Of a stretch of DNA of 64,000 nt, positions 50,635-51,641 are shown piece after piece (positions within the stretch are counted from its first letter, which is position 1; each line of letters begins with the position of its first letter). The notes beneath the pieces are model-generated. The model was not told the DNA's origin and made no database searches. It saw nothing but the letters and a program-made list of their open reading frames with translations. The stretch is taken from assembly GCA_934101865.1 (NCBI GenBank), contig CAKOSA010000002.1, forward strand, positions 17,929-81,928, written 5' to 3'. Source of the DNA: an uncultured Bacilli bacterium. GTDB lineage: Bacteria > Bacillota_I > Bacilli_A > RF39 > UBA660. The position numbers and the translations under genes are program-made.

Positions 50635-51393
50635 CTATTCATTCCTCTCACTTATACTAAAATCATATACCCTGTTCTTGTACATAATCTTAATACCCCT
50701 ATAAATACTACTATCATAAATCGTCTTTACATTTTTGCCGTATTTATTATAATTCTCATCTTTCTTGCCAACCATTACCCTAATAGTAGGATCGTTCAAA
50801 CTAACAAGCTGATCCAAATAATCAATAAAGTTATCAATACTAGTATCAACACTAACACTCTTAAACATCTCATATATCTTATACTCTTCATCATTTAAAA
50901 GTTCCCTAACTTTCTTGTCCTGATTACTAGCACACTTTATATCATATATAACATCACTCTTAAACTTCCTTTTAAGCCTCTTACAGAAATCAAACCTATT
51001 ATCACTCTTTGCAAACTTCACAAAGTCCTTAACTAAGGCATTGTAGTCAATAACAAAGTTCTCATCTATCTTTCGGTTAAGTTCAAATACACCCTTATCG
51101 TGATACTTCGTCTTTGAAAGTAAATCAATAACATCCGTATCAAAATCATACTTATTACTTATTTTTTCCTCATTATTCTCTTTAATTTCTTCTTCTCTAC
51201 TTTTTATAAGTTCGTCAATCTCATTAAGTTTATTTTCCTTTTCATTAATAAGTTCATCATATCCTTGTAGTTTATTGACGAAATAAGACTTTGTCTGGTC
51301 ATTAACGATAGCCACTGTCTTTTTAAAGATAAGAAACATAAAGAGAACTAATACTGAAATGACCACACAAGATATAATAAATACTATAATCAT
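50635..51393 (-). CDS. b-like / delta(OSCP)-like fusion stator subunit (252 aa)
   Basis: An N-terminal TM (IIVFIISCVVISVLVLFMFLIF) is followed by a charged coiled coil (b-like). The C-terminus IRVMVGKKDENY...IYDSSIYRGIKIMYKNRVYDFSI resembles the delta/OSCP C-terminal D.sliGG..i..gd.viD.S motif. The TAATG overlap links it to the c-like gene. Confidence 0.5.
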   Translation of the reverse strand: MIIVFIISCVVISVLVLFMFLIFKKTVAIVNDQTKSYFVNKLQGYDELINEKENKLNEIDELIKSREEEIKENNEEKISNKYDFDTDVIDLLSKTKYHDKGVFELNRKIDENFVIDYNALVKDFVKFAKSDNRFDFCKRLKRKFKSDVIYDIKCASNQDKKVRELLNDEEYKIYEMFKSVSVDTSIDNFIDYLDQLVSLNDPTIRVMVGKKDENYNKYGKNVKTIYDSSIYRGIKIMYKNRVYDFSISERNE

Positions 51394-51641
51394 TAGTAAG
51401 TTACAAGTGGATTAAAGAATAATAGTAAGAAACAAAATGCAAATAAGAATAGTAAAAATGTAGCTGTAATGATAAGAATAGTCATAACTGAGTGTACAAC
51501 ATCGTTCTTAGTCTCGGGATTTCTTCCCACAGCCTCGGCTACTCTCCCACCAAGAATACCTACTCCTATTCCTAGTCCTAAAAATGAGAGGCCTATCATA
51601 ATTCCAATAGCAATCGCTGTATTTGATAATATCGTTTCCAT
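51393..51641 (-). CDS. Fo c-subunit-like hairpin protein lacking the ion-binding carboxylate (82 aa)
   Basis: Helix 1 is Gly-rich ([16 protein letters not shown]), and the loop [12 protein letters not shown] resembles the c-subunit R(Q/N)PE loop. Helix 2 ([35 protein letters not shown]) contains no Asp or Glu. The SD is AAGGAAGGA. Confidence 0.65.

What the first reader, a model, noticed from the sequence alone, without database searches (positions are those of the whole stretch)
51393..51641. c-subunit-like protein with no acidic residue in helix 2
Seen: the 82-aa protein has the c-subunit layout. Helix 1 is Gly-rich ([11 protein letters not shown]) and the polar loop is GRNPET. From residue 48 to the C-terminus ([35 protein letters not shown]) there is no Asp or Glu. 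Counting ~17 residues after the loop Glu, as in Bacillus c subunits, lands on I-T-A-T.

Known: the helix-2 carboxylate is the H+/Na+ binding site of all functional F/V/A-type rotor rings.

Inference: this is a ring-forming scaffold that cannot carry ions, so any torque must be used or anchored differently.
Basis: partly seen in the sequence, partly recalled or inferred. Interest (0 to 1): 0.75.

Follow-up and report, generated by a model that had tools for sequence, protein, structure and literature searches.

The report
Ion-blind c-ring of a repurposed F-ATPase
This small gene encodes a true relative of the ATP-synthase rotor subunit c that has lost its ion-binding residue in every known family member. 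It belongs to a widespread, undescribed ATP-driven machine of gut bacteria that has no ion channel and is encoded next to giant surface proteins.

Summary
ORF 51393-51641(-) is an 82-aa c-subunit homologue (Pfam ATP-synt_C 36.3 bits, cut-off 24). Ala60 sits at the ion-binding column, and the helix-1 Na+ ligand is also gone. No acidic residue occurs in helix 2 of any relative examined (59 distinct sequences from 84 loci; members down to 35% identity). The gene is still the most constrained in its operon (dN/dS about 0.015).

It opens a transcription unit: c-like, b-delta-fusion-like stalk, alpha-like, beta-like, epsilon-like, a 5-TM protein with no conserved Arg, gamma-like, and an acidic 735-aa protein. 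Catalytic F1 motifs are intact. No subunit a is found in the window or within 10 kb of the c-like gene in the 84 related loci.

A conserved-motif scan found relatives in 344 species-representative genomes: gut and rumen Bacilli, Lachnospiraceae, Erysipelotrichaceae. In most of the 80 loci fetched, the operon follows a 1,700-2,350-aa surface protein and a paralogue sharing a membrane-proximal domain.

Best reading: a non-ion-translocating, ATP-hydrolysing F1-like motor. Its carboxylate-free c-ring is the membrane rotor or anchor that passes force to the surface proteins. It works like the mycoplasma F1-like X0 ATPases but is not a member of those families. I found no prior description. The Listeria lmo0088-0093 "ATP synthase-like operon" has the same gene order but was not tested.

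The parts
51678..51706 (-). Promoter-like site. TTGACA-17-TATAAT, 12 of 12 matches, with an extended TG. It lies about 37 bp upstream of the c-like start codon.
   Evidence: This is a consensus match only; function was not tested.
51393..51641 (-). c-subunit-like protein, 82 aa. It is a two-helix hairpin with a GxGxGxG helix 1 and an RNPE loop. Ala60 sits at the ion-binding column.
50635..51393 (-). b-delta-fusion-like peripheral-stalk protein, 252 aa. It has an N-terminal TM plus long helix (2-73), a disordered linker, and a helical bundle with a beta C-terminal domain.
   Evidence: The AF2 model has pLDDT 76.6. The top ~33 Foldseek PDB hits are all delta/OSCP chains; the best is 6oqr_W with E 0.017 and prob 0.96, and the M. 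smegmatis b-delta fusion is among them. 4 of 35 members give weak Pfam OSCP hits. A sequence profile found nothing in the PDB.
49307..50632 (-). alpha-like subunit, 441 aa. It has the GDKKTGKT P-loop and an SVSRLGG arginine finger. About 70 C-terminal residues are missing relative to canonical alpha.
47935..49287 (-). beta-like catalytic subunit, 450 aa. It carries [27 protein letters not shown] and EELSEED.
47685..47942 (-). epsilon-like protein, 85 aa. Only the beta-sandwich domain is present; there is no C-terminal helical domain.
   Evidence: The protein has no direct Pfam or PDB hit. Its positional orthologue in the distant locus L087 passes Pfam ATP-synt_DE_N (39.1 bits vs 27). That orthologue aligns in register with this family (hhalign E 5.8e-4). 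hhalign against Bacillus PS3 epsilon gives E 0.03.
47140..47682 (-). Membrane protein of 180 aa with 5 predicted TM helices ('mem180'). It is a candidate membrane stator or scaffold. It has no Arg at all in this copy and no conserved membrane Arg in the family.
   Evidence: Lachnospiraceae-type loci encode it fused to a p243-like ectodomain.
46363..47130 (-). gamma-like central-shaft subunit, 255 aa.
   Evidence: Pfam ATP-synt scores 78 bits against a cut-off of 39.9.
44066..46273 (-). Acidic 735-aa protein with no TM helix and 188 Asp+Glu. It is the last gene of the unit and is present only in the closest clade (12 of 80 loci).
   Evidence: Its role is unknown.
44034..44058 (-). Terminator-like hairpin followed by a T-run, directly after the last gene.
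4972..10815 (-). Giant 1947-aa protein with one N-terminal TM helix. Its N-terminal ~250 aa are conserved and the rest is variable. In most relatives this gene lies just upstream of the c-like gene (separated only by p503 and sometimes p243).
3489..5000 (-). p503, a single-pass membrane protein. Its N-terminal domain is homologous to that of the giant protein.
   Evidence: hhalign gives Prob 98.1%, E 9e-14. It is present in 72 of 80 loci.
2748..3479 (-). p243, a single-pass membrane protein. It shares the C-terminal half of the same membrane-proximal domain.
   Evidence: hhalign gives Prob 92%. It is present in 63 of 80 loci and is fused to mem180 in some.
2013..2642 (-). SipW/archaeal-type signal peptidase I. 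It is a possible accessory gene, linked to the system in a few relatives.
   Evidence: TIGR02228 scores 96 bits against a cut-off of 51.85. It is linked to the system in 5 of 80 loci.

Best explanation
The ORF encodes a genuine c-subunit homologue whose hairpins most likely still form a membrane ring. The ring has lost both the H+/Na+-binding carboxylate and the helix-1 Na+ ligand. It belongs to a distinct, conserved F-type-derived machine made of these parts:
- a catalytically intact alpha3beta3-like head;
- a gamma shaft and an epsilon foot;
- a membrane-anchored b-delta-fusion-like stator;
- the ion-blind c-ring;
- a 5-TM protein with no essential Arg;
- no subunit a.

Such a machine can neither make ATP from an ion gradient nor pump ions. 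It most likely works only as an ATP hydrolase. Rotation or torque of gamma/epsilon/c-ring against the b-delta/5-TM stator would then be passed through the membrane to three co-encoded single-pass proteins: the giant protein, p503 and p243. These share a membrane-proximal ectodomain, and one of them carries a variable extension of about 1,700 residues.

Shown here: homology of the parts, loss of the ion site, absence of subunit a nearby, purifying selection, synteny, and the mem180-p243 fusion.
Inferred: ring assembly, rotation, and force transmission to the surface proteins.
For: - c homology and Ala at the ion column.
- Family-wide absence of any helix-2 acidic residue, against exactly one in the intact canonical single-hairpin c subunits found by the same search.
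- The c-like gene has the lowest dN/dS in the operon (0.015-0.03).
- The loop GRNPETK, which in canonical c contacts gamma/epsilon, is nearly invariant.
- The beta P-loop and catalytic GERxREG are present in 76 of 76 sequences, and the alpha Arg finger in 75 of 81.
- The stalk protein's fold hits are all delta/OSCP.
- gamma is confirmed by Pfam; epsilon is confirmed through a distant orthologue.
- No subunit-a motif in the window or in any of 84 loci.
- The 5-TM protein has no conserved Arg and no significant fold match.
- The operon is conserved in the 80 loci fetched (one per species-representative genome) and follows the giant protein and p503 in most.
- The three single-pass proteins are paralogous.
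- The 5-TM protein and p243 are fused in Lachnospiraceae-type loci.
- Precedent: the mycoplasma Type 2 and Type 3 F1-like ATPases act on surface proteins (PMC11864180, PMC12994834).
Against: - No experiment and no oligomer model; ring formation is assumed from homology.
- In this window the giant-protein block lies about 33 kb from the ATPase block, so here the linkage rests on relatives.
- The stalk fold match is weak in E-value (0.017), and the sequence profile finds nothing.
- A subunit a or a carboxylate-bearing c encoded elsewhere in the genome could not be excluded, because whole genomes could not be searched.
- Nothing shows what the surface proteins do.
Confidence: 0.6

Rival explanations
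1. Protein export or assembly motor. The F1-like head with its b-delta-like stalk would act like the flagellar FliH/FliI/FliJ ATPase. It would energise secretion, membrane insertion or surface assembly of the giant protein and its paralogues, perhaps with the SipW-type peptidase. It would not drive them continuously. The c-ring would be a gate or platform.
For: - The co-encoded proteins all have N-terminal signal-anchor-like segments.
- A SipW-type signal peptidase is linked in the window and in 5 of the 80 fetched loci.
- FliH/FliI/FliJ are accepted homologues of b-delta, alpha/beta and gamma (10.1101/2021.01.01.425057, listed).
Against: - The signal peptidase is linked in only 5 of 80 loci.
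- A complete rotor (gamma, epsilon, c) and stator are retained, which export ATPases do not need.
- No export-gate homologue was seen in the cluster.
Confidence: 0.2
2. Still an ion-translocating F-ATPase. Ions would bind at a non-canonical site, or the ring would be a hybrid with a carboxylate-bearing c subunit. It would work with a subunit a encoded elsewhere, for example in a canonical atp operon.
For: - A. woodii builds a hybrid ring in which one hairpin of c1 lacks the carboxylate; this is the best PDB match.
- Whole genomes could not be checked for other atp genes.
- Public annotation calls the protein 'F-type H+-transporting ATPase subunit c'.
Against: - No acidic residue at all in helix 2 in any member.
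- The Na+ ligand Gln is lost as well.
- Only one c-like gene per locus, and no subunit a within 10 kb in 84 loci.
- No other ionisable residue is conserved in the membrane core.
- alpha, beta and c all score below the NCBIfam equivalog cut-offs.
Confidence: 0.07
3. Static membrane anchor. The c-like oligomer only tethers an F1-like ATPase to the membrane. The work would be done in the cytoplasm, for example on the acidic 735-aa protein or on a cytoskeletal partner. Nothing would be transmitted across the membrane.
For: - In M. mobile the related G1-ATPase forms cytoplasmic chains (PMC11864180).
- The window's operon ends with a large cytoplasmic acidic protein.
Against: - The acidic protein is present in only 12 of 80 loci, whereas the giant, p503 and p243 membrane proteins are in 63-72.
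- The extreme constraint on the whole c hairpin, including its outer end (invariant NP motif), argues for more than a tether.
Confidence: 0.1
4. A decaying remnant of a duplicated atp operon with no function.
For: Loss of the key catalytic residue of Fo and loss of subunit a are what gene decay would produce.
Against: - All genes are intact.
- dN/dS is 0.015-0.19 across the operon.
- Catalytic F1 motifs are conserved in all members.
- The operon is conserved in the 80 loci fetched, spanning several classes, out of 344 species-representative genomes that encode a c-like relative.
Confidence: 0.02

Closest known systems
Canonical F-type c subunit (AtpE, Pfam PF00137), especially the Na+-type c of Acetobacterium woodii and Ilyobacter tartaricus
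   Same: It has the two-helix hairpin, the GxGxGxG packing motif, the R(N/Q)PE loop and a C-terminal (A/F)NP(F/L) end. It passes the Pfam gathering score.
   Different: There is no helix-2 carboxylate (Ala, Ser, Thr or Val instead) and no helix-1 Gln. It scores below every NCBIfam equivalog cut-off (best 44.9 vs 71). It is encoded without subunit a.
Acetobacterium woodii c1 (PDB 4bem_J) and V-type proteolipids
   Same: These are precedents for c-type hairpins that lack the carboxylate yet sit in a working rotor ring. A. woodii c1 is the best PDB match.
   Different: There the silent hairpins are fused or mixed with active ones and the ring still carries ions. Here the only c gene of the operon is silent in every member.
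Mycoplasma Type 2 (G1, gliding) and Type 3 (F1-like X0, MIB-MIP) ATPases (PMC3369863, PMC11864180, PMC12994834)
   Same: Both are extra F1-like alpha/beta/gamma/epsilon clusters without subunit a. Both are genetically tied to large surface proteins and are thought to pass ATP-driven force across the membrane. MMOB1620 (GliD) is proposed to derive from a b-delta fusion. The alpha/beta here also hit those NCBIfam models.
   Different: The scores are far below the family cut-offs (beta 407.7 vs 570; alpha 316 vs 520). The mycoplasma X0 sector is a 12-TM protein plus a 2-TM large protein, with no recognisable c or TM-anchored b-delta (PMC12994834). The hosts here are gut Bacilli and Clostridia that use genetic code 11. 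Beven et al. 2012 stated there was no equivalent in other bacteria.
Listeria monocytogenes lmo0085-lmo0094 'ATP synthase-like operon' (PMC13082608, PMC5736727, PMC3091722)
   Same: The literature gives the same gene order: three hypothetical genes, then c, delta, alpha, gamma, beta, epsilon, then a hypothetical gene, with no a or b. It is an accessory second cluster. An lmo0091 mutant is impaired in intracellular replication.
   Different: This is a lead only. No Listeria sequence was available here, so neither homology to this family nor the residue at the ion column was tested.
N-ATPase (alternate F1F0; TIGR03322 and relatives)
   Same: It is also an extra F-type operon that exists beside the canonical one.
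   Different: N-ATPases keep subunit a and an ion-binding c. This c scores 17.3 against a cut-off of 130.85, and the alpha/beta also score below the alt-F1F0 cut-offs.
Mycobacterial b-delta fusion subunit (e.g. PDB 7njn_d)
   Same: A single polypeptide combines a TM anchor and stalk helix with a delta-like domain. It appears among the fold hits.
   Different: The sequence similarity is not significant. The protein here is much shorter (252 aa vs about 440).

Membership tests
F/V/A-type rotor subunit c (PF00137) | Profile match above the curated threshold over the whole hairpin | tested here: met
   36.3 bits against a cut-off of 24; residues 10-73 align to profile positions 1-60.
F/V/A-type rotor subunit c (PF00137) | Gly-rich helix 1 (GxGxGxG) and a polar R(Q/N)P loop | tested here: met
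   [11 protein letters not shown] and GRNPE are present. The loop is nearly invariant in the family.
F/V/A-type rotor subunit c (PF00137) | Membrane-embedded Asp or Glu in helix 2 that binds H+ or Na+ | tested here: not met
   Ala60 occupies the column. None of 59 distinct family sequences has any acidic residue in helix 2.
F/V/A-type rotor subunit c (PF00137) | Assembles into a homo-oligomeric ring | not testable with these tools
   Only monomer structure prediction was available.
F0F1 ATP synthase subunit C equivalogs (NCBIfam) | Score above the equivalog cut-off | tested here: not met
   The best hit is NF005363 at 44.9 against 71. All 16 other hits are also below their cut-offs.
Canonical F1Fo ATP synthase operon | Subunit a with the essential Arg (xRLFGNx) next to the c-ring | tested here: not met
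   The motif is absent from the window ORFs of at least 70 aa and from 2,972 ORFs (at least 55 aa) of 84 loci. The 5-TM protein has no conserved Arg and no significant fold match to subunit a.
Canonical F1Fo ATP synthase operon | alpha and beta reach the atpA and atpD equivalog scores | tested here: not met
   atpD scores 457.5 against 462.85. atpA scores 371.1 against 484.45.
Canonical F1Fo ATP synthase operon | Catalytic F1 residues: beta P-loop, catalytic Glu, alpha Arg finger | tested here: met
   Present in 76 of 76, 76 of 76 and 75 of 81 sequences respectively.
Canonical F1Fo ATP synthase operon | gamma, epsilon and delta/b stalk subunits | tested here: met
   gamma passes Pfam at 78 bits. 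epsilon is supported through the L087 orthologue. The delta-like fold appears in the top ~33 Foldseek hits, although the E-values are weak.
Mycoplasma Type 2/3 F1-like ATPases | alpha/beta reach the MSC_0618/0619 or MMOB1660/1670 family cut-offs | tested here: not met
   407.7 against 570, 316.3 against 520, 357.4 against 850, and 384.2 against 600.
Mycoplasma Type 2/3 F1-like ATPases | X0 sector made of a 12-TM protein and a large protein with two C-terminal TM helices | tested here: not met
   The cluster's membrane proteins are a 2-TM c-like protein, a 1-TM stalk, a 5-TM protein and single-pass proteins. The definition is taken from PMC12994834.
Mycoplasma Type 2/3 F1-like ATPases | F1-like cluster without subunit a, genetically linked to surface proteins | tested here: met
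   Synteny with the giant protein and p503 holds in 63-72 of 80 loci.
Mycoplasma Type 2/3 F1-like ATPases | Coexists with a genuine Type 1 F1Fo operon in the same genome | not tested
N-ATPase (alternate F1F0) | Matches the alt_F1F0 models and has an ion-binding c with subunit a | tested here: not met
   TIGR03322 scores 17.3 against 130.85. TIGR03305 scores 417.7 against 752.
Listeria lmo0088-lmo0093 ATP synthase-like operon | Sequence homology and the same carboxylate loss | not tested
   Only the gene order from the literature matches. No sequence was available.

The most novel reading that the evidence does not exclude
This is a fourth type of F1-derived motor, and an evolutionary intermediate between true F1Fo and the mycoplasma gliding and MIB-MIP motors. 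An ATP-driven rotor with an ion-blind c-ring physically turns or cranks a giant extracellular protein anchored by its N-terminal helix in or beside the ring. That would give walled gut Bacillota, possibly including Listeria, a new kind of powered surface organelle for adhesion, motility or cell-cell interaction.
Probability: 0.25. Interest if true: 0.95.

Novelty: new variant of a known kind. Interest (0 to 1): 0.8.

Why it matters
- Rotary ATPases are textbook ion-coupled machines. A widespread branch that keeps rotor, stator and catalytic head but has deleted the ion path shows how such a motor can be rewired for mechanical work.
- Because the c, b-delta and epsilon subunits are still recognisable, it offers a readable intermediate for how the mycoplasma F1-like X0 motors arose. 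Those were thought to have no equivalent in other bacteria.
- It occurs in abundant human and animal gut lineages and in at least two genome records titled as strains rather than MAGs (Hominiventricola filiformis CLA-AA-H276 and 'Candidatus Merdisoma sp.' HCP28S3_D10). The Listeria operon with the same gene order has an infection phenotype. Experiments are therefore possible.
- These genes are auto-annotated as 'F0F1 ATP synthase subunit C' or 'F-type H+-transporting ATPase'. Metabolic reconstructions of reduced-genome gut bacteria may therefore wrongly credit them with chemiosmotic ATP synthesis.

Tried and rejected
- Sequence-profile searches of the PDB found nothing significant for the stalk protein, the 5-TM protein, the epsilon-like protein, p243 or the giant protein.
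- Foldseek of the 5-TM model gave only E > 1. Bacillus PS3 subunit a ranked 11th with E 3, so an origin from subunit a is neither shown nor excluded.
- hhalign of the epsilon-like family against E. coli epsilon failed and against PS3 epsilon was weak. The assignment rests on the L087 orthologue.
- Pfam and NCBIfam find no domain in the giant protein, p503, p243, p556 or the four secreted paralogues.
- A viral-contig scan found no relative, so a phage origin is rejected.
- Nine full-text searches found no paper describing this family outside mycoplasmas. The library is open-access only, so absence is not proof.
- I could not obtain Listeria lmo0088.
- The 'decaying pseudogene cluster' reading is rejected on the dN/dS and motif conservation data.
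Full report
**1. The observation**

The window holds an 82-aa ORF at 51393-51641 on the minus strand. A strong ribosome-binding site precedes it (sequence). A perfect extended -10 promoter, TTGACA-17-TATAAT, lies at 51706-51678.

The protein passes the Pfam gathering score for ATP-synt_C (36.3 bits vs 24). Its closest solved relatives are the Na+-type c subunits of Acetobacterium woodii, then chloroplast and Ilyobacter c. In the printed alignments the Glu of A. woodii c1 and c2 faces Ala60 (T59-A60-T61). 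A MAFFT alignment with E. coli (D61), I. tartaricus (E65) and Bacillus PS3 (E56) gives the same column, and it puts Ile29 where I. tartaricus has the Na+ ligand Gln32.

**2. It is a family trait, not an accident**

- All 120 closest database proteins lack an acidic residue at the ion-binding column; one singleton (P0029) has a Glu further along helix 2.
- A library-wide HMMER search of 1.84 billion cluster representatives shows a clean split. Full-length single-hairpin relatives down to 35% identity have no acidic residue in helix 2. Every intact canonical c subunit in the same list has exactly one, at the expected position.
- A scan of species-representative genomes found 344 genomes encoding a relative. 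In the 84 loci fetched (80 from this scan plus L001-L004) there are 59 distinct sequences. None has Asp or Glu in helix 2, and the ion-binding column reads A22/T20/S16/V1.
- The loop GRNPETK, the Gly motif and a C-terminal NP are nearly invariant.
- Against the nearest genome (L005) the protein is 100% identical while synonymous sites are more than half changed (pS 0.58, dN/dS about 0.015). This is the lowest ratio in the operon. The protein is therefore under intense selection for something other than ion binding.

**3. The surroundings**

The gene opens a unit that runs to a terminator-like hairpin at 44058-44034. In order, the genes are as follows.

- **c-like protein.**
- **A 252-aa stalk protein.**
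  - The AlphaFold model (pLDDT 76.6) shows a 72-residue N-terminal TM plus stalk helix, a disordered linker and a helical-bundle/beta domain.
  - The top ~33 Foldseek hits in the PDB are all delta/OSCP chains, including the mycobacterial b-delta fusion. The best E is 0.017 with prob 0.96.
  - 4 of 35 family members give weak Pfam OSCP hits. A sequence profile alone finds nothing in the PDB.
- **alpha-like (441 aa) and beta-like (450 aa) subunits.** Both score high against F1 models but fall below the atpA and atpD equivalog cut-offs. They also fall below the cut-offs of the mycoplasma MSC_0618/0619 and MMOB1660/1670 families and of the alternate F1F0.
- **An 85-aa protein with no direct family hit.** Its positional orthologue in a distant member (L087) passes Pfam ATP-synt_DE_N (39.1 vs 27). 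That orthologue aligns in register with this family (hhalign E 5.8e-4). It is an epsilon that keeps only the beta-sandwich domain.
- **A 180-aa protein with five predicted TM helices**.
- **A gamma-like subunit** (Pfam 78 bits).
- **A 735-aa acidic cytoplasmic protein** found only in the nearest clade.

The catalytic signatures are intact throughout the family. The beta P-loop and GERxREG occur in 76 of 76 sequences, and the alpha Arg finger in 75 of 81.

**4. No ion path**

Subunit a is missing. The near-universal xRLFGNx motif is absent from the window ORFs of at least 70 aa and from 2,972 ORFs (at least 55 aa) of the 84 loci. The 5-TM protein has no Arg at all in this copy and no conserved membrane Arg in the family. 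Its model (pLDDT 72) has no significant fold match, and Bacillus PS3 subunit a appears only at rank 11 with E 3. Both halves of the canonical Fo mechanism are therefore absent: the c carboxylate and the a Arg.

**5. Conserved partners**

In the 80 genome loci the order is remarkably constant: giant protein (1,700-2,350 aa), p503, sometimes p243, then c, stalk, alpha, (gamma), beta, epsilon, 5-TM protein, and p243 or gamma.

- BLAST-detectable counts out of 80 are: c 80, stalk 77, alpha 76, gamma 76, beta 75, epsilon 75, p503 72, giant 63, p243 63.
- The 5-TM protein is found by BLAST in 45 loci and by position in 20 more.
- Two gene orders exist. One keeps the canonical c-(b-delta)-alpha-gamma-beta-epsilon order.
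- In the window itself the giant/p503/p243 block lies at 334-10815, about 33 kb away. It sits with a SipW-type signal peptidase (TIGR02228, 96 bits) and a further single-pass protein. In the closest relatives the two blocks are contiguous (L006, L048, L049 and others).
- The giant protein, p503 and p243 each have one N-terminal TM helix.
- Their membrane-proximal domains are homologous: giant vs p503 gives hhalign Prob 98%, E 9e-14, and p243 matches the C-terminal half at Prob 92%. This N-terminal part is the most conserved region, while the distal part of the giant protein varies.
- In Lachnospiraceae-type loci the 5-TM protein and p243 are one ~400-aa polypeptide. This fusion indicates that the two work together.
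- Distant members (c-like 35-37% identical) keep the same layout, with 701-, 1,828- and 781-aa proteins upstream.

**6. How it most likely works**

*Shown.* A complete F1-like head, shaft, foot and stator are encoded with a c homologue that cannot bind ions and without subunit a. All are under purifying selection and are tied to a set of paralogous single-pass surface proteins.

*Inferred.* The complex is an obligate ATP hydrolase. Its c-ring serves as a membrane rotor or anchor, and its torque or conformational cycle is handed to the ectodomain complex (5-TM-p243, p503, giant protein).

This is how the mycoplasma Type 2 (gliding) and Type 3 (MIB-MIP) F1-like ATPases are thought to work (PMC11864180, PMC12994834). 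In those systems the membrane sector is a 12-TM protein plus a 2-TM protein, with no recognisable c.

The rivals, in order of weight, are:
- an export or assembly ATPase in the manner of FliH/FliI/FliJ;
- a mere tether for a cytoplasmic motor;
- a cryptic ion pump using a hybrid ring and a remote subunit a;
- gene decay, which the conservation data exclude.

**7. Comparison with what is known, and novelty**

The protein is a member of the c-subunit superfamily by profile. It fails the family's functional hallmark and all NCBIfam equivalog thresholds.

The operon works like, but is not a member of, the mycoplasma Type 2/3 families. The cut-offs are not met and the X0 architecture differs. It is not an N-ATPase.

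Beven et al. 2012 wrote that the F1-like ATPases had no equivalent in other bacteria. Nine full-text searches found no description of this family.

One lead emerged. L. monocytogenes lmo0085-lmo0094 is listed as three hypothetical genes, then c, delta, alpha, gamma, beta, epsilon, then a hypothetical gene. It is called an 'ATP synthase-like operon' and has a reported role in intracellular replication. This is the gene order seen here, but I could not obtain the sequences.

I rate the finding a new variant of a known kind. It is a fourth, c-ring-retaining type of repurposed F1 motor, widespread in gut and rumen Bacilli ('Mycoplasma sp. CAG:472/956'-like), Lachnospiraceae and Erysipelotrichaceae.

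**8. Limits**

- No oligomer prediction, no whole-genome search for canonical atp genes, and no experiment.
- The delta-like assignment rests on a consistent but weak fold match.
- The role of the surface proteins is unknown.

Noticed in passing
window 334-10815 (-): This block holds the giant 1947-aa protein, p503, p243, a SipW-type signal peptidase and a 556-aa single-pass protein. In most relatives the first two or three genes sit directly upstream of the c-like gene. Here the system is split by about 33 kb.
   Followed up: yes
L028, L031, L054, L059, L060, L072, L079 (about 400-aa ORF right after the epsilon-like gene): In Lachnospiraceae-type loci the 5-TM protein and the p243-like ectodomain are fused into one polypeptide. 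The fusion keeps the FYG(L/V)F(L/I)G and FFLYDG motifs of the two parts.
   Followed up: yes
window 51805-54400 and 56831-60061 (-): Four paralogous secreted proteins (346, 508, 530 and 499 aa) flank the ATPase operon. They share a conserved C-terminal domain and have N-terminal signal-anchor-like hydrophobic segments. No Pfam or NCBIfam domain was found. In L001-L004 a homologue lies beside a diversity-generating retroelement (bAvd plus reverse transcriptase).
   Followed up: partly
window 26805-28019 and 28669-29883 (-): Two transposase-like genes with an HTH_38 domain (likely IS30 family) are 100% identical at the protein level and lie 650 bp apart. Mobile elements like these could explain why the system is split in this genome.
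   Followed up: partly
window 36973-38241 (-) and 55433-56647 (-): Two AAA_14/DUF4143 ATPase genes. The second, together with a 216-aa ORF (54746-55396), interrupts the row of secreted paralogues.
   Followed up: no
proteins P0150, P0153, P0177, P0206, P0209: The public protein library holds fused multi-hairpin c subunits with 3 to 14 repeats (up to 1,139 aa). The first hairpin often keeps Glu while later ones have Gln. These are whole or partial rotor rings encoded as one chain.
   Followed up: no
Listeria monocytogenes lmo0085-lmo0094 (literature): This 'ATP synthase-like operon' has the same gene order and no a or b subunit. It is specific to Listeria sensu stricto and has a reported intracellular-replication phenotype. 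It is possibly the same family.
   Followed up: partly
window 44066-46273 (-): This 735-aa protein has 188 acidic residues and no TM helix. It is the last gene of the ATPase unit but occurs only in the closest clade (12 of 80 loci).
   Followed up: partly
window 10985-12454 (-): A 489-aa secreted protein with a SpaA-type prealbumin-fold domain and an N-acetylmuramoyl-L-alanine amidase domain lies directly upstream of the giant-protein gene.
   Followed up: no
PMC12306168: A study of reduced-genome gut bacteria reports an 'unexpected' F0F1 ATP synthase in organisms without respiratory chains. Clusters like this one could be mis-scored as ATP synthases in such reconstructions. I did not check whether those genomes carry this family.
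   Followed up: no
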